Virus record (IMG/VR): IMGVR_UViG_3300028837_000518
Coordinates: 45,320-109,319 of that record
Length of the DNA stretch: 64,000 nucleotides
Direction: 5' to 3' (one strand)
DNA from: a virus
Shown here: piece after piece, positions 4-24,239 of the stretch
Layout of the letters: every line of letters starts with the position of its first letter
How positions within the stretch are numbered: the first letter of the stretch is position 1
Program-made: the position numbers and the translations under genes
The notes under the pieces: generated by a model
What the model was told of the DNA's origin: nothing
The model's input: only the letters and a program-made list of their open reading frames with translations
Databases searched by the model: none

Positions 4-104
4 GGGTTGGGTCGAAGTATGTCGGTTATCATACATAGTAATAGCATGGGTAAGAGTACGGCTCTACCATGCCCAAACTCGACATACATTCCCTTATCCA
101 ATCC
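4..104 (+). ncRNA. Y RNA-like element 1 (Ro60-binding hairpin)
   Basis: GGGTTGG(4-10)/CCAATCC(98-104) terminal stem, GTCGA with bulged C opposite TTAT, second helix GTATGTCG(17-24)/CGACATAC(80-87), GGTTATC motif, internal hairpin 44-72; upstream of Ro60. Confidence 0.8.
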
Positions 105-121
105 ATAATACTTAAATTGTT

Positions 122-180
122 GGCTAGGTCGAAGTATGCTGGTTATCCTCTATGATCCCGGCTACAATCCTTATCTAGCC
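122..180 (+). ncRNA. Y RNA-like element 2 (minimal)
   Basis: GGCTAG-GTCGA...GGTTATC...CTTAT-CTAGCC followed by TTT; same architecture as the other four copies and as Y RNA termini. Confidence 0.82.
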
Positions 181-183
181 TTT

Positions 184-256
184 AGGTAAATAGCTCAGTT
201 GGTAGAGCACTTCTTTTACAAAGAAGAGATCGCAGGTTCGAGTCCTGCTTTGCCTA
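184..256 (+). tRNA. tRNA-Val(TAC)
   Basis: Full cloverleaf: AGGTAAA/TTTGCCT acceptor, GCTC/GAGC D stem, CTTCT-TTTACAA-AGAAG anticodon arm, GCAGG-TTCGAGT-CCTGC T arm; CCA not encoded. Confidence 0.93.
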
Positions 257-267
257 CTAAAACTTAA

Positions 268-374
268 TAGATTAGGTCGAAGAGTATCGGTTATCAAGGC
301 AAGCCGAGAGGTTGGTCTGGTGAGCCAGACTTAACATCGGTTATGAAAACGATCTCACAAACTTATCTAATCTA
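268..374 (+). ncRNA. Y RNA-like element 3
   Basis: TAGATTAG(268-275)/CTAATCTA(367-374) stem, GTCGA/CTTAT, GGTTATC motif, long internal hairpin 302-342. Confidence 0.8.
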
Positions 375-377
375 CAT

Positions 378-449
378 GGGGGCGTAGCTTAACGGGAAAG
401 CACCTCTTTTGCAAGGAGGGTACTGGAGGTTCAATTCCTCCCGTCTCCA
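378..449 (+). tRNA. tRNA-Ala(TGC)
   Basis: Cloverleaf with GGGGGCG/CGTCTCC acceptor containing the G3:U70 Ala determinant; anticodon TGC at 410-412; CCA not encoded. Confidence 0.93.
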
Positions 450-452
450 CCT

Positions 453-515
453 CTTGGGTCGAATGCATTGGGTTATTCAAGGTGAAAACTTCCCAACGCA
501 GTTAACTTATCCAAG
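453..515 (+). ncRNA. Y RNA-like element 4
   Basis: CTTGG/CCAAG stem, GTCGA/CTTAT, TGCATTGGG/CCCAACGCA helix, GGTTATT motif. Confidence 0.8.
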
Positions 516-524
516 TAATAATAT

Positions 525-597
525 GCGGGAGTAGCTCAGTTGGTAGAGCATCGCCTTGCCAGGGCGAGGGTCACGAGTTCGAGTCTCGTTTTCCGCT
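525..597 (+). tRNA. tRNA-Gly(GCC)
   Basis: Cloverleaf GCGGGAG/TTTCCGC, anticodon GCC at 558-560, U73 discriminator; CCA not encoded. Confidence 0.93.
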
Positions 598-606
598 TAT
601 GTTGTT

Positions 607-685
607 AAGCCGGGTCGAGTTCAGTGGGTTATTGTGTATAATAATCCTTGTGTGTGTTTTCCCACTGGAAAAGTTAACCTGGCTT
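607..685 (+). ncRNA. Y RNA-like element 5
   Basis: AAGCCGGG/CCTGGCTT stem, GTCGA, TTCAGTGGG/CCCACTGGA helix, GGTTATT motif, ends in T run. Confidence 0.78.
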
Positions 686-732
686 TTATCTCTCTGGGAC
701 GCTTTTCCATCCACCACTACTAGGAGGTTATA

Positions 733-2433
733 ATGAGCAATTACGGCCAACACTTCTCTACACAGCAAACCGTCCAGACCGAGCCCATCCCAGGAAAAGA
801 TATGGGAGAAAACTTGGCTGGTGGTTATGCATTCAAGATTGATAAGTGGGCAAGACTTCAGCGTTTTCTTATCCTCGGCGCGGAAGGCACCTACTATGCT
901 AGCGGTCAAGCAATGACCATTGATAATGCTAACGTAGTAGTGGATTGTATTCGGGAAGATGGCCGGCGAGTGGTAGATAGTATTGTTACTACCTCACAAG
1001 AGGGTCGTGCGCCCAAGAATGACTCAGCACTATTTGCCCTTCTCATGTGTATGACACCAGACTTTGCCAATCTTGCAACTCGCCAAGCAGCATTTGCTGC
1101 TCTTCCTGCAGTTGCACGAATTGGTACGCACCTATTTAAGTTCTGCTCTGAGGTTGACTCAATGCGGGGTTGGGGACGTGGGCTACGACGCGCACTCTCT
1201 AGGTGGTACAACTCTAAAGCTCCTGCTCGCCTTGCATACCAAGTTGTAAAGTATCAGCAGCGGCATGGCTGGACCCACAGAGATGTATTGCGCAAGGCTC
1301 ACCCAGTCCCCTTATCGGATGCGCACAAGATTATCTATCACTACATAACTCAAAAGGAGCTACCATGTAGTCTCGCGCAGACAGAGGGTGGTGTGGATAT
1401 GTTGTATGCCTTCGAGTCTATCAAACGGGCCGAGAGTGTTAATCAGGCCACACAACTAATCCGTGAATTCAGACTTCCTCGCGAGGCAGTGCCAACTCGA
1501 TTCTTGAATGATAGTGCTATTTGGCAAGCACTACTAGAATCTATGCCTATGACCGCCATGATTCGCAACCTTGCCAAGATGACCAGTATTGGTCTACTTG
1601 CTCCCTTGTCGTTCGCAGCTAACTTTGTAGTAAAGCAATTAGGTAATGCAGATTATCTGAGACGCGCACGCGTTCACCCATTCTCTGTATTTCTTGCGTT
1701 GCGAACCTACGCGATGGGTTGCGGTATTCGTGGTAAGCTTCGGTGGGAACCAGTACCTGCCATAGTAGATGCGCTTGACAAGGCTTTTTACTTGTGTTTT
1801 GATAATGTTGAGCCAACTGGAAAGCGTATAGTAATCGGCGTTGATGTCTCGGGTAGCATGAGTGCGCCGATACTCGCTGATCCTAATACACAATTCATGG
1901 TACCGGGGCCACCATCAGTCCTGGAGGCCGCTGCTGCAATTGCGTTAGTTACTAACGCTGTGGAACCCAATAGTACTATAGTAGCATTCTCGCATGATAT
2001 AGTACCAATCACTATTACACCGCGCCAGCGGATTGATAACCTTTGCAACGAGCTACGCGGCCTACCAATGGGCAATACAGACTGTGCTCTACCCATGCTT
2101 TGGGCGCTAGGTTATGCGCCCGATGTACGTGGTGGTATTCACAGATGGTTCCGTCACCCCTGCGATTATAAGAAAGTTAGGGACAACGTTATCGAGGCTG
2201 ATGTTTTCATAGTAATTACCGACAACGAGACTTGGTTTGGCAAGATACACCCTGTGCAGGCACTAAACAAGTATCGAAAGCAAACAGGTATTGACGCCAA
2301 GCTAGTTGTTCTCGCTATGACCTCTACCGGATTTTCTATAGCTGACCCCAATGATTCTGGAATGCTTGATATTTGTGGTATGGATAGCGCTGTTCCCACA
2401 CTTATCTCTGACTTTATAAGTGGCAGAGTTTAG
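733..2433 (+). CDS. rsr: Ro60/TROVE domain RNA-binding protein with C-terminal vWA (MIDAS) domain
   Basis: N-terminal 'NLAGGYAF...LQRFLILGAEGTYY', 'GWGRGLRRA', 'KYQQRHGWTHRDVLRKAHP', 'MPMTAMIRNLAKMT', vWA 'DVSGSM' and 'ITDNETW'; AGGAGG RBS at 722-727. Confidence 0.96.
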   Translation: MSNYGQHFSTQQTVQTEPIPGKDMGENLAGGYAFKIDKWARLQRFLILGAEGTYYASGQAMTIDNANVVVDCIREDGRRVVDSIVTTSQEGRAPKNDSALFALLMCMTPDFANLATRQAAFAALPAVARIGTHLFKFCSEVDSMRGWGRGLRRALSRWYNSKAPARLAYQVVKYQQRHGWTHRDVLRKAHPVPLSDAHKIIYHYITQKELPCSLAQTEGGVDMLYAFESIKRAESVNQATQLIREFRLPREAVPTRFLNDSAIWQALLESMPMTAMIRNLAKMTSIGLLAPLSFAANFVVKQLGNADYLRRARVHPFSVFLALRTYAMGCGIRGKLRWEPVPAIVDALDKAFYLCFDNVEPTGKRIVIGVDVSGSMSAPILADPNTQFMVPGPPSVLEAAAAIALVTNAVEPNSTIVAFSHDIVPITITPRQRIDNLCNELRGLPMGNTDCALPMLWALGYAPDVRGGIHRWFRHPCDYKKVRDNVIEADVFIVITDNETWFGKIHPVQALNKYRKQTGIDAKLVVLAMTSTGFSIADPNDSGMLDICGMDSAVPTLISDFISGRV

Positions 2434-22209: not shown

Positions 22210-22679
22210 CCACTCTTCTTTTAGCCGCAGTCATCGCACTTGGTTTGGGGGCTATCGTTCTTGGAATTCGCCTATTGCAAATATCAGGGAGGAATAGAAC
22301 ATGACTGACGCATTCATGGACGCTCCGAATTGGGCACAGTGGATTATAGTGGCTTTTGGGCTAATCGGCACTCTAGTTTCAGCTATCCCTGCGGATGGGT
22401 GGGAGTGGTGCATACTGCGGAATGCGACGGCTTTTGCATTGTTTGCTTTTGGTGCCTTACTTTTTTACAACATTTACTTGAGCTAGGTGGAGGGTATGAT
22501 GGAAGATATAGGTGTGGCGTATTTAGCAGCGGTGATGTTTGCGGGGGTGGTTGCTAGTATAGCAATAATGGTCGATGAAAGACGTGGCACTTTCTCTAGG
22601 TTTTTTGCTATCCTAACAACAATTGCTTGTTACGCGGGAATGTTCCGTTATCTACGCCAGTTCTTCAAGGGAGGGTGAG

Positions 22680-24239
22680 ATGAAGGTAGGGATAACCAAT
22701 TTTGTTAAACTTGGCGCGCTAGTACGCGATGGTGTTACAGACTGGTTAGAGTACGGGAATGTGCGTGCCGTGTACCACGAGGGACTAGTTCTGTTTAACT
22801 ATACAGCAAAAGCACAGTTCCAGAATCGCTGGAACTGGTTTGAGCGTGTGAGTCGCGGGCTAATTTTAGACGCAACCACTGGCAAGGTTATAGCTCGCCC
22901 CTTCGACAAGTTCTGGAACTGGGGTGCATTCGGGCGGACGACTGACGCGGACTTGATTGAGGTAACAGAGAAGCTAGATGGGTGTTTTACTGGCTATACA
23001 AAACTAAATCTATGGGGTGGTGGTACAATTCCTATTAGGGAAGTAGTAAAAAAGCAACTAGCAGTAACACTTATAGGGATAAATAAGAGTGGGCAAGTTG
23101 TTCCTGCAAAAGTTGTTGACTGGTTCAACAACGGTACAAAAACTGAGTGGCTTTTACTGACGGTAGATTGTGATGTCTCTAAGCTATCAGGAACTCGGAC
23201 AGGGAACCATATTGTTGTTACACCTAATCACCATATACTCCTAAACGGACGATACCAACCAGTAGTTAATGCAAGACCAGGTGATTATGTTTTAAACTAT
23301 GGATGGTGGCCAGATGATCGTCAGCAAGGCAAACTTATACGGCGAGTAAAAGAGGTGAAAGTTCTTGACATACAGCATCTTAAACATGATGGTTCACACT
23401 CACACTTTTCCGCTGGGCGTGTTGGTTTCGATGTAGAGACAACGACGGGAAATTATTTTGCTAAGGGTGTCTTAGTACATAATTCGCTTGGCATTATGTA
23501 CTGGCATGAAGGCAAGTACAAGATTGCCACACGCGGATCATTCACAAGCGAACAGGCGTTGTGGGCGACAGAGTATTTGAATACGAACTATGATCTTAGT
23601 ACTTGTGATTTTCCTGGCACATTGCTTTTTGAGATAATCTACCCAGAAAATCGTGTCGTGGTGGATTATGGTAGGCAGCATGAAGACTTGGTGTTAATCG
23701 GAATACGGCTGCGTGAATCAGATTATGATGCCCTTTATCCTCATTTGGAATATTTTGCTCAGAAATACGGATTTACTTTGCCTCAGACCTATGAATTCTC
23801 TGACATAGCCAGCATTCTCGCCGCCCGCGAAGAGATTGTAGGCACTGAGCAAGAGGGCTGGGCACTACGGTTTGCTGATGGGCAACGATTTAAAGTGAAG
23901 GGAACGTCCTACCTAACACTACATCGTTTGGTTAGTCGTGCAACATATCCTGCTGTAGTTAAGGCTATGATGCGAGGCGAGTTGGACGAAACATTGCAAG
24001 ATTTGCCCAGCGAGCTATCGGGCGAGATCGTAGAATGGCGGGACATAACTAATGAGAGAGTGGCGCACATAAAACGGTGCGTTGAGCTGAACTTTGCCAT
24101 TGCGCCACAGGGAAGTCGGAAAGAGTTTGCTATATGGGCTAATACGGTTTTCCCAAGTCTCGCTCCATATCTATTCAGGCGGCTAGATGGGTGCGACTAT
24201 ACACAGTTGATCTATAAGAATATTCTAAAGGAGTGCTAG
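22680..24239 (+). CDS. T4 Rnl1-like RNA ligase containing a mini-intein
   Basis: 'LFNYT', 'RGLI...ARPFDKFWN', motif I 'EKLDG|S', 'ATRGSF.SEQA', 'LFEIIYPENRVVVDY', 'EGW...RFKVKG..Y'. Confidence 0.9.
   Translation: MKVGITNFVKLGALVRDGVTDWLEYGNVRAVYHEGLVLFNYTAKAQFQNRWNWFERVSRGLILDATTGKVIARPFDKFWNWGAFGRTTDADLIEVTEKLDGCFTGYTKLNLWGGGTIPIREVVKKQLAVTLIGINKSGQVVPAKVVDWFNNGTKTEWLLLTVDCDVSKLSGTRTGNHIVVTPNHHILLNGRYQPVVNARPGDYVLNYGWWPDDRQQGKLIRRVKEVKVLDIQHLKHDGSHSHFSAGRVGFDVETTTGNYFAKGVLVHNSLGIMYWHEGKYKIATRGSFTSEQALWATEYLNTNYDLSTCDFPGTLLFEIIYPENRVVVDYGRQHEDLVLIGIRLRESDYDALYPHLEYFAQKYGFTLPQTYEFSDIASILAAREEIVGTEQEGWALRFADGQRFKVKGTSYLTLHRLVSRATYPAVVKAMMRGELDETLQDLPSELSGEIVEWRDITNERVAHIKRCVELNFAIAPQGSRKEFAIWANTVFPSLAPYLFRRLDGCDYTQLIYKNILKEC
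22983..23483 (+). mobile_element. Mini-intein (167 aa, no homing endonuclease) in RNA ligase motif I
   Basis: 'CFTGYT' start, 'VTPNH' block B, 'LVHN|S' end. Confidence 0.9.

What the first reader, a model, noticed from the sequence alone, without database searches (positions are those of the whole stretch)
4..2433. Phage Ro60 gene preceded by an array of five Y RNA-like genes interleaved with tRNAs
Seen: five non-identical hairpins (4-104, 122-180, 268-374, 453-515, 607-685) share GGTCGA-N8-9-GGTTAT(C/T) on the 5' side and CTTAT-C on the 3' side (TTAAC in copy 5). The closing stems differ in sequence yet stay paired (GGGTTGG/CCAATCC, GGCTAG/CTAGCC, TAGATTAG/CTAATCTA, CTTGG/CCAAG, AAGCCGG/CTGGCTT), i.e. 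covariation. The order is Y1-Y2-tRNAVal-Y3-tRNAAla-Y4-tRNAGly-Y5-Ro60. Established: Ro60 binds a terminal helix with a bulged C in Y RNAs, and Y RNA genes lie next to bacterial and some phage Ro60 genes. From memory, copy 2 resembles the human Y1 5' end (GGCUGGUCCGAAGGUAGUGAGUUAUC) and copy 5 resembles Y3 (…GAGUGCAGUGG…CCCACUG). Inference: this is a multi-Y-RNA Ro60 RNP cassette in a virus, with animal-like rather than tRNA-mimic (YrlA) Y RNAs. The array may continue upstream of position 1.
Basis: partly seen in the sequence, partly recalled or inferred. Interest (0 to 1): 0.95.

Follow-up and report, generated by a model that had tools for sequence, protein, structure and literature searches.

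The report
Phage Ro60 gene with Y-RNA/tRNA array
An uncultivated 109-kb phage carries a gene for the RNA-binding ring protein Ro60. Just upstream lie six small hairpin "Y RNA" genes alternating with three ordinary tRNA genes; this is a real but fairly typical example of a protein-RNA module that I found beside Ro60 genes in most of the phage and microbial loci I searched.

Summary
Five hairpins (4-104, 122-180, 268-374, 453-515, 607-685) share GGUCGA-N8-GGUUAU, 5 matches against 0.04 expected. They alternate with genuine tRNA-Val, tRNA-Ala and tRNA-Gly genes and precede a canonical Ro60 gene (733-2433). A sixth, degenerate copy lies 106-165 nt upstream of the window.

The hairpins belong to a large family. 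A covariance model built from relatives found 128 matches beside viral Ro60 genes and 92 beside bacterial and archaeal Ro60 genes. Every match was on the Ro60 strand, mostly within 1 kb upstream, and the covariation is strong. The handle matches the bacterial GNCGAA motif and, in spacing and the UUAUC loop motif, the animal Y RNA and nematode sbRNA consensus.

None of the six copies has the tRNA-like domain of YrlA. Real tRNAs sit 3-10 nt away instead, which suggests release of the Y RNAs by tRNA-processing enzymes. That step is inferred.

Phage Ro60 with Y RNAs is already published (mycobacteriophages 2014, Thermus phage phiLo 2025), and this scan has noted similar arrays on other DNA. I rate it a new variant of a known kind, of moderate interest. 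Expression and Ro60 binding are untested.

The parts
4..104 (+). Y1. Terminal helix 4-12/96-104, bulged C13, G14-A15 paired with U94-U95, upper stem 17-24/79-86, GGUUAUC at 24-30. The 50-nt apical part holds a hairpin and no T-loop.
   Evidence: R2 model 37-37.5 bits, E 1.5e-6 in 521 kb; this copy was not in the seed. RNAfold z -4.6.
122..180 (+). Y2, the shortest copy (59 nt). Helix 122-129/173-180, bulged C130, GA 131-132 paired with UU 171-172, GGUUAUC at 141-147. It ends 3 nt (UUU) before tRNA-Val.
   Evidence: R2 39 bits; this copy is a seed member. RNAfold z -2.6.
184..257 (+). tRNA-Val (anticodon TAC), no encoded CCA.
   Evidence: ARAGORN; Rfam tRNA 75.3 bits.
268..374 (+). Y3 (107 nt). 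Helix 268-277/365-374, bulged C278, GA 279-280 paired with UU 363-364, upper stem GAG(U)AUCG/CGAUCUC, and a long apical hairpin. It ends 3 nt before tRNA-Ala.
   Evidence: R2 31.8 bits, E 3.6e-5; not in the seed. RNAfold z -2.8.
378..451 (+). tRNA-Ala (anticodon TGC). Its discriminator base A449 is 3 nt before Y4.
   Evidence: ARAGORN; Rfam tRNA 64.4 bits.
453..515 (+). Y4 (63 nt). Helix 453-459/509-515, bulged C460, GA 461-462 paired with UU 507-508, GGUUAUU loop motif.
   Evidence: R2 47 bits, E 3e-9; this copy is a seed member.
525..597 (+). tRNA-Gly (anticodon GCC).
   Evidence: ARAGORN; Rfam tRNA 63.6 bits.
607..685 (+). Y5 (79 nt). Helix 607-615/677-685. C616 faces A676 instead of bulging, the motif is CGAG instead of CGAA, and the apical loop is U/G-rich. 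It ends 47 nt before the Ro60 start codon.
   Evidence: R2 29.2 bits with filters off. Rfam Y_RNA 29.9 bits, E 6e-4, below the gathering score of 38. RNAfold z -4.3.
722..727 (+). Shine-Dalgarno-like AGGAGG, 5 nt before the Ro60 ATG.
   Evidence: Read directly from the sequence.
733..2433 (+). Ro60 (TROVE HEAT-repeat ring plus vWA domain), 566 aa. The MIDAS-type DVSGS motif is kept, as are K173, R177 and H190, which align with Xenopus K170, R174 and H187.
   Evidence: Pfam TROVE 8e-42 and vWA_Ro60 2e-57; phrog_850 1e-71; human and Xenopus Ro60 E 1e-119, D. radiodurans Rsr 1e-98.

Best explanation
The region is a phage Ro60-Y RNA module. Six small RNA genes (Y0, just upstream of the window, and Y1-Y5) each fold into a hairpin built on the same plan. 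The 5' and 3' ends pair into a terminal helix that ends in GG(U/C), then a bulged C, then G-A paired with U-U. An internal loop follows, then an 8-9 bp upper stem, then a near-invariant UUAUC at the start of a variable apical part. This terminal helix is the handle that Ro60 proteins recognise in animals, bacteria and Thermus phage phiLo.

The most likely working is as follows:
1. The Y RNAs, the three tRNAs and the Ro60 mRNA are made as one + strand transcript.
2. Host RNase P cuts at each tRNA 5' end, and tRNA 3'-end enzymes cut at each 3' end. These cuts set the neighbouring Y RNA ends free, because the spacers are only 3-10 nt.
3. The phage Ro60 ring binds each Y handle.
4. The different apical parts gate the ring or tether it to different host partners. 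By analogy with D. radiodurans, Salmonella and phiLo, a likely partner is the exoribonuclease PNPase. The outcome would be altered RNA decay, quality control or repair during infection, possibly as a counter to host defence.

Shown here: the sequence anatomy, family membership, covariation of the helices, and linkage to Ro60 in position and strand.

Inferred: co-transcription, tRNA-dependent processing, Ro60 binding, the partners, and the biological role.
For: Motif and folds:
- Five exact motif matches against 0.04 expected, and stable folds.

Family model:
- R2 was built from 28 short RNAs beside Ro60 genes; 26 came from other viral contigs and two (Y2, Y4) from this window. It finds Y1 and Y3, which were not in the seed, at 37 and 32 bits, and Y5 and Y0 at 29 and 15 bits.
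- It finds no other convincing match in the 109-kb genome; the only other match scores 12.9 bits, E 0.9.
- It gives 128 matches in viral Ro60 loci and 92 in cellular Ro60 loci, all on the Ro60 strand. 78 of 99 viral matches lie within 1 kb upstream of the start codon and none lie inside the gene.

Covariation:
- Viral set: 85% of cells paired against 62% shuffled; covariation score 0.66 against 0.25 (0 of 500 shuffles reach it); slid controls 0.10-0.16.
- Independent cellular set: 88% against 70%; score 0.54 against 0.22.
- The pair next to the bulged C switches between C-G (84 sequences) and U-A (32, the type in this window).

Links to known Y RNAs:
- Mycobacteriophage Cali, a phage of the kind in which Y RNAs were published, carries the same handle.
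- The CGAA nucleotides each contribute to phiLo Ro60 binding (PMC12135203). The bacterial motif GNCGAAN0-1G fits Y1-Y4 (PMC4201824).

Protein:
- The Ro60 is full length, with conserved ring and MIDAS residues.

tRNA neighbours:
- Real tRNAs within 10 nt of Y RNAs recur in L140 (Y-tRNAPro-Y-Y-Ro60), L138, L149, L159 and L167.
Against: - There is no expression, end-mapping or binding data.
- No promoter-like site lies directly before Y1. The nearest is about 950 nt upstream, before an unrelated ORF.
- Y0 has lost CGAA (it reads CGCC) and Y5 has CGAG plus a C-A mismatch, so not all copies need be functional.
- Y1-Y4 give no match to Rfam Y_RNA or YrlA.
- The covariation alignments were fitted to the model, which favours the structure.
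- Chen et al. [quoted passage not shown]
Confidence: 0.75

Rival explanations
1. The Y-like hairpins act in cis rather than as free RNAs. They would be Ro60-binding sites in the leader of the tRNA-Ro60 transcript, through which the protein feeds back on its own translation or on the stability and processing of the operon RNA.
For: The last Y copy sits very close to the Ro60 start codon. The gap is 47 nt here and only 20-30 nt in many relatives (L131, L135, L147, L201, L140). No separate promoter or terminator was found around the array.
Against: Arrays of up to 8 copies, copies downstream of Ro60, and copies spaced by tRNAs are more than a leader needs. Bacterial and phiLo relatives are bound as free RNAs (PMC4201824, PMC12135203).
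Confidence: 0.1
2. Each Y RNA works together with its neighbouring tRNA as a two-piece equivalent of YrlA. Either the uncut Y-tRNA precursor is the active species, or the Ro60-Y particle surveys, protects or helps repair the phage's own tRNAs, for example against host anticodon nucleases.
For: In relatives the two parts are physically joined:
- YrlA-type RNAs.
- tRNA genes whose anticodon arm is replaced by a Y handle, in L002, L128, L131 and L201. L201 carries the closest Ro60, at 53% identity.

The spacers between Y2 or Y3 and the next tRNA are only 3 nt. The phage also encodes a T4 Rnl1-like RNA ligase.
Against: The three tRNAs are fully canonical and should be cut out by RNase P. I found no specific complementarity between Y apical parts and the tRNAs; the best duplex z-score was -2.4 over 30 comparisons. 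Y1, Y5 and Y0 are not followed by a tRNA.
Confidence: 0.1
3. The hairpins are chance inverted repeats, decayed tRNA genes, or generic processing or terminator hairpins of a tRNA operon, with no link to Ro60.
For: They lie in a tRNA cluster, and hairpins are common between tRNA genes.
Against: Five motif matches against 0.04 expected. The same handle is found beside Ro60 in more than 100 loci, always on its strand. The helices covary. The copies have no D or T arm remnants.
Confidence: 0.03

Closest known systems
Bacterial and mycobacteriophage Y RNAs YrlA and YrlB with Rsr/Ro60 (Chen et al. 2014, PMC4201824; Rfam RF02553)
   Same: They are encoded within about 1 kb upstream of Ro60 on the same strand, often several per locus. 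They share the 5' motif GNCGAAN0-1G in a terminal helix formed by the two RNA ends. Cali, a phage of this group, carries three RNAs with the same handle.
   Different: None of the six copies has the T-arm/D-arm tRNA-like domain that defines YrlA; they resemble the simple hairpin class (YrlB, Yrn2). Canonical tRNA genes are interleaved instead. Where this family has GGUUAUC, the Rfam YrlA consensus has 'gaaCUAc'.
Thermus phage phiLo Ro60 with Yrl1 and Yrl2 (PMC12135203; PDB 9KOP, 9L5Y)
   Same: A phage Ro60 gene with Y-like RNAs directly upstream. The handle contains CGAA, and binding was shown to depend on it. The particle binds host PNPase.
   Different: phiLo has two RNAs rather than six, and the paper describes no interleaved tRNAs. 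phiLo Ro60 is too diverged to appear among the PDB sequence matches of this protein.
Animal Y RNAs and nematode stem-bulge RNAs (Rfam RF00019, RF01656; Kowalski and Krude 2015, PMC4726728)
   Same: The plan is the same: a terminal helix GGUC[C]GA/UUGACU with a bulged C, 8 nt to GGUUAU, an upper stem, and UUAUC at the start of the loop. The Rfam Y_RNA consensus can be compared with the R2 consensus. Y5 scores 29.9 bits on Y_RNA. Relatives score up to 38.5 bits on the sbRNA model, whose cut-off is 38.
   Different: The helix next to the bulge is one pair shorter here (GGU[C]GA/UUAUC). Y1-Y4 give no Rfam match. These are phage genes made by bacterial transcription, with no polymerase III U-tail logic. 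Common descent is not shown.
E. coli phage Bas63 gp130, a Ro60-like protein next to tRNA genes (PhageMaP preprint, 10.1101/2024.10.10.617714)
   Same: A phage Ro60-type protein encoded beside a run of tRNA genes. It is reported to counter a host defence system (Ppl), which gives a possible biological role.
   Different: The similarity of gp130 to Ro60 is structural only. Its partner RNAs are only guessed at in the preprint. I did not compare the sequences.
tRNA punctuation of polycistronic transcripts (RNase P and RNase Z release of flanking RNAs, as in mitochondria and bacterial tRNA operons)
   Same: Non-tRNA genes are separated by tRNAs with spacers of a few nucleotides, so cutting out the tRNAs would define the neighbours' ends.
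   Different: This is not demonstrated here. Y1/Y2 and Y0/Y1 have no tRNA between them, so other nucleases would also be needed.

Membership tests
Y RNA (functional class: small RNA partner of Ro60) | Encoded next to a Ro60 gene on the same strand | tested here: met
   Y5 ends 47 nt before the Ro60 ATG, and all copies are on the + strand. The family as a whole is strand- and position-linked to Ro60.
Y RNA (functional class: small RNA partner of Ro60) | The 5' and 3' ends pair into a conserved helix with a bulged C and the G(N)CGA(A) motif | tested here: met
   Met in Y1-Y4. Y5 has a C-A mismatch and CGAG; Y0 has CGCC. Covariation supports the helix.
Y RNA (functional class: small RNA partner of Ro60) | Accumulates as a discrete small RNA and is bound by Ro60 | not testable with these tools
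No RNA-protein prediction tool was available.
Rfam Y_RNA (RF00019) | Score at or above the gathering cut-off of 38 bits | tested here: not met
   Y5 scores 29.9 bits (E 6e-4). Y1-Y4 give no match at E<10.
Rfam YrlA (RF02553) | tRNA-like T arm, closed acceptor-like stem and D arm between the handle strands; score at or above 69 bits | tested here: not met
   No YrlA match at E<10 in 1-760. The T-loop scan finds only the three real tRNAs in this region.
Nematode sbRNA (RF01656) | Score at or above 38 bits | tested here: not met
   Y5 scores 20.5 bits. Relatives in other phages reach 29-38.5 bits.
Simple Ro60-linked Y RNA family defined here (model R2) | Match to R2: terminal helix, bulged C, GA/UU, upper stem, GGUUAUC | tested here: met
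   Y4 47, Y2 39, Y1 37.5, Y3 31.8, Y5 29.2 and Y0 15.1 bits. Y2 and Y4 were seed members; the others were not.
Ro60 / TROVE protein | TROVE HEAT-repeat ring plus C-terminal vWA domain with a MIDAS motif | tested here: met
   Pfam TROVE and vWA_Ro60 above their cut-offs. Full-length alignment to human and Xenopus Ro60 with DVSGS kept.
Ro60 / TROVE protein | Basic residues used for Y RNA binding (Xenopus K170 and R174) and cavity residue H187. The roles of these residues are recalled from the literature, not checked here. | tested here: met
   K173, R177 and H190 align with them and are invariant in the four-sequence alignment A5.
tRNA | Cloverleaf with anticodon; Rfam tRNA score at or above 29 bits | tested here: met
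   75.3, 64.4 and 63.6 bits; ARAGORN gives Val-tac, Ala-tgc and Gly-gcc.

The most novel reading that the evidence does not exclude
The simple Y RNAs beside phage, bacterial and archaeal Ro60 genes may be true homologues of animal Y RNAs and nematode sbRNAs. They share the bulged-C handle, the 8-nt spacing and the UUAUC loop motif. If so, UUAUC is an ancient part of the Ro60 particle rather than an animal DNA-replication signal, and phages are plausible carriers of the Ro60-Y module between domains of life. This phage would add a twist: its Y RNAs have no built-in tRNA-like domain and may instead use real neighbouring tRNAs for maturation or function.
Probability: 0.3. Interest if true: 0.7.

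Novelty: new variant of a known kind. Interest (0 to 1): 0.45.

Why it matters
Ro60 and its Y RNAs are studied because of lupus and Sjogren autoimmunity and because of RNA quality control, yet what they do in phages is largely unknown.

- This locus is a compact test case: one canonical Ro60, six different partner RNAs on one scaffold, and tRNAs that could serve as built-in processing signals.
- The family model built here shows that simple Y RNAs with an animal-like UUAUC motif lie beside most of the searched Ro60 genes of phages and many bacterial phyla. Reviews describe bacterial Y RNAs as highly diverged from animal ones, so this bears on the origin of the Ro60 particle.
- It also gives a searchable model for annotating these RNAs, which Rfam 15 does not match at its gathering cut-offs in this window.

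Tried and rejected
- A model built from Y2 alone (R1) was too weak and misaligned Y1 and Y3. It was replaced by R2.
- MAFFT alignments of the full copies misplace the 3' strands. I set the structure columns for the seed by a script.
- The viral-collection scan with GGTCGAAG-N4-9-GGTTATC gave 118 or more loci. By my estimate of pattern frequency, not checked locus by locus, most are chance matches. Of those read, only L074 proved useful.
- My regex-and-pairing finder missed many copies and was used only to pick seeds.
- Rfam YrlA searched against the whole phage genome gave only a 16-bit match to an orphan T-arm element at G000:24937-25047.
- I tested complementarity between Y apical parts and the phage tRNAs or the Ro60 leader. 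Nothing stood out; the best duplex z-score was -2.4.
- ARAGORN's 'tRNA-Arg' next to a Y RNA in L184 turned out to be a YrlA-type RNA, not a tRNA, so I dropped it from the list of Y-tRNA neighbours.
- Two reviews by Sim and Wolin, and the supplementary tables of Chen et al. 2014, were not held. I therefore cannot exclude that simple Y RNA arrays or the UUAUC motif in prokaryotes are described there.
- The host could not be named. The best phage relatives of the helicase are only about 30% identical.
Full report
**What is there**

The window is bases 45320-109319 of a 109,319-bp IMG/VR virus record with 144-bp direct terminal repeats and 46.7% G+C. It encodes phage proteins such as a head maturation protease.

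At its left end, all on the + strand, lie five hairpins at 4-104, 122-180, 268-374, 453-515 and 607-685. They alternate with tRNA-Val(tac) 184-257, tRNA-Ala(tgc) 378-451 and tRNA-Gly(gcc) 525-597. The tRNAs score 64-75 bits on the Rfam tRNA model.

After an AGGAGG ribosome-binding site comes a 566-aa ORF at 733-2433. It matches Pfam TROVE and vWA_Ro60. It aligns end to end with human and Xenopus Ro60 at E about 1e-119, better than with Deinococcus Rsr at 1e-98. The MIDAS-type DVSGS motif is kept. So are K173, R177 and H190, which align with Xenopus K170, R174 and H187. That these residues serve Y RNA and substrate binding is my recollection of the literature, not something checked here.

**Check of the observation**

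GGTCGA-N7-10-GGTTAY occurs five times in 64 kb, all in the array, against 0.04 expected.

Each copy has a different terminal helix of 7-10 bp. The helix is followed by a bulged C, then G-A paired with a conserved U-U, an internal loop, an upper stem of 7-9 bp that ends in the GG of GGUUAU, and a variable apical part. In Y5 the C faces an A, and the motif reads CGAG.

The record upstream of the window (L001) shows a sixth, decayed copy at window -165 to -106. It reads GGGUCGCC...UGGUUACC...CUUAUCC.

**What it is**

A single-protein search for relatives of the Ro60 found two viral contigs. A profile search found 283, of which 80 were kept. Nearly all have the same kind of hairpin upstream.

I built covariance model R2 from 28 short copies, 26 from other viral contigs and two (Y2, Y4) from this window.
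- Over 521 kb of viral Ro60 loci plus the window, it gave 128 matches at E<=0.05, every one on the Ro60 strand.
- 78 of 99 matches in loci with full flanks lie within 1 kb upstream of the start codon, 13 just downstream, and none inside the gene.
- In the window it found Y1-Y4 only. With filters off it also found Y5 (29 bits) and Y0 (15 bits).
- The rest of the 109-kb genome has no other convincing match; the only other match scores 12.9 bits, E 0.9.
- The same model gave 92 matches, again all on the Ro60 strand, in 59 of 80 Ro60 loci from bacterial and archaeal genomes. These span Armatimonadota, Chloroflexota, Planctomycetota, Verrucomicrobiota, Myxococcota, Gemmatimonadota and a Bathyarchaeota MAG.

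Covariation supports both helices.
- Viral set: 85% of cells paired against 62% after shuffling; covariation score 0.66 against 0.25; slid partners 0.10-0.16.
- Cellular set, which shares no sequence with the seed: 88% against 70%; score 0.54 against 0.22.
- The pair next to the bulged C alternates between C-G and U-A. The window's copies are the U-A type.
- Caveat: these alignments were fitted to the model.

**Relation to known Y RNAs**

The handle is the published bacterial motif GNCGAAN0-1G (PMC4201824). Each of the CGAA nucleotides contributes to binding by Thermus phage phiLo Ro60 (PMC12135203). Mycobacteriophage Cali, from the group in which phage Y RNAs were first reported, has three RNAs with this handle upstream of its Ro gene. 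One of them is a YrlA-type tRNA mimic.

Other contigs show arrays that mix simple hairpins and YrlA-type RNAs. L074 has four and L182 has eight. So several Y RNAs ahead of a phage Ro60 is the rule, not the exception. With five good copies plus one decayed, this window is at the upper end of the range.

The family is also strikingly like animal Y RNAs. The Rfam Y_RNA consensus GGCuGGUCCgA-N8-GGGUUAu...CCCAC...UU.GACUaGCC has the same order and spacing as the R2 consensus ggcGGgCCGAA-N7-GGUUAUC...CC...AAC-UU-GcCCgcc. Y5 scores 29.9 bits on Y_RNA. Relatives score 29-38.5 bits on the nematode sbRNA model, whose cut-off is 38. The Rfam YrlA consensus has 'CUAc' where this family has UUAUC.

A review states that UUAUC is conserved in vertebrate Y RNAs and sbRNAs, and that bacterial Y RNAs are highly divergent (PMC4726728). 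It is a property of a whole prokaryotic and viral family, though, not of this phage. By Rfam's own thresholds these copies are members of neither Y_RNA nor YrlA.

**What is particular here**

None of the six copies has a T or D arm, whereas Chen et al. 2014 found a tRNA-like domain in at least one Y RNA of each species they surveyed. Three canonical tRNAs sit between the copies instead, with short spacers:
- 3 nt between Y2 and tRNA-Val, and 3 nt between Y3 and tRNA-Ala.
- 9 nt between Y4 and tRNA-Gly.
- 3-10 nt from each tRNA to the next Y.

Real tRNAs within 10 nt of a Y RNA recur in L140 (Y-tRNAPro-Y-Y-Ro60), L138, L149, L159 and L167. Many viral Ro60 genes lie inside tRNA arrays.

In the closest relatives the tRNA and the handle are fused the other way round. 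These are tRNA genes whose anticodon arm is replaced by a 50-62 nt insert carrying a loop-closed Y handle, in L002, L128, L131 and L201.

**Most likely mechanism**

The likely sequence is co-transcription, then excision of the tRNAs by RNase P and 3'-end enzymes, which frees the Y RNAs. Ro60 then binds the handles. The distinct apical parts gate the ring or tether it to host proteins such as PNPase, as shown for D. radiodurans, Salmonella and phiLo.

Possible roles:
- Damping or redirecting host RNA decay.
- RNA repair. The phage also has a T4 Rnl1-like RNA ligase at 22623-24239.
- Countering a host defence, as reported for the Ro60-like gp130 of phage Bas63 (10.1101/2024.10.10.617714).

All of these steps are inferred. 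No expression or binding data could be obtained. The only promoter-like site is about 950 nt upstream, before an unrelated ORF.

**Rivals**

1. The copies could act in cis, as a leader for Ro60 feedback.
2. Y-tRNA units could work as a split YrlA, or Ro60 could guard the phage tRNAs.
3. The hairpins could be chance or generic features of a tRNA operon.

The third is excluded by the statistics above. The first two remain possible at about 10% each. A test for complementarity between the Y apical parts and the tRNAs was negative.

**Novelty and verdict**

Phage Ro60 with adjacent Y RNAs is published (2014, 2025). This scan's own notes record many Ro60-like protein and RNA arrays on other DNA, and several first-stage notes on this same stretch.

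Within the literature I could search, I did not find:
- an all-simple Y array punctuated by real tRNAs;
- a family-wide description of the UUAUC-bearing simple Y RNAs of phages and bacteria.

Two key reviews and the supplementary tables of the 2014 paper were not available. I rate it a new variant of a known kind, with interest 0.45.

Noticed in passing
L002:2555-2678 and 2770-2894; L128:1982-2104 and 2113-2240; L131:2153-2275; L201:1724-1836 and 2213-2335: These are tRNA-like genes with normal acceptor, D and T arms. Their anticodon arm is replaced by a 50-62 nt insert that carries a loop-closed (permuted) Y handle with the CGRA...GGUUAUC motifs. Rfam tRNA scores them 40-55 bits and ARAGORN misses them. 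They look like a third way of joining a tRNA body to a Ro60 handle, besides YrlA.
   Followed up: partly
window about 13856, 14998 and 16808; also G000:C1:24937-25047: Four orphan elements have a T arm (GTTCRANNC loop on a 5-bp stem) stacked on an acceptor-like stem, but they are not called as tRNAs. The one at G000:24945 gives a weak YrlA match (16 bits).
   Followed up: partly
window 22623-24239 (+): A 538-aa protein matches T4 Rnl1-type RNA ligase (phrog_562, 1e-47). This is an RNA repair enzyme in the same phage as the Ro60-Y module.
   Followed up: no
L001:1441-1475 (window -59 to -25): A perfect inverted repeat, ATCTTTGA-N-TCAAAGAT, lies between the decayed copy Y0 and Y1. It has no U tail. 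It could be an operator or a processing site.
   Followed up: no
L184:2176-2250; L003:2827-2900: ARAGORN labels YrlA-type Y RNAs as tRNA-Arg and tRNA-Asn. tRNA counts near phage Ro60 genes can therefore be inflated.
   Followed up: yes
L216 (Bathyarchaeota MAG) 926-1368; L249 (Akkermansia muciniphila MAG) 509-575: The same simple Y RNA family lies upstream of Ro60 in an archaeal MAG (four copies) and in a gut Akkermansia MAG.
   Followed up: no
L141:798-913: A wcaG RNA (RF01761) match at 56 bits, above its cut-off of 42, lies between two Y RNAs in a 296-kb viral contig.
   Followed up: no
G000, about 8.3 kb before the window start: An earlier first-stage note reports an E2-JAB-E1-Ubl operon in this phage. 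Another note in the scan links ubiquitin-like modules with Ro60-like genes in other genomes. I did not examine this.
   Followed up: no
window 60-72 (Y1 apical part): GCUCUACCA in Y1 is complementary to the D-arm sequence UGGUAGAGC of tRNA-Val and tRNA-Gly. The duplex score is not significant (z -2.4).
   Followed up: yes
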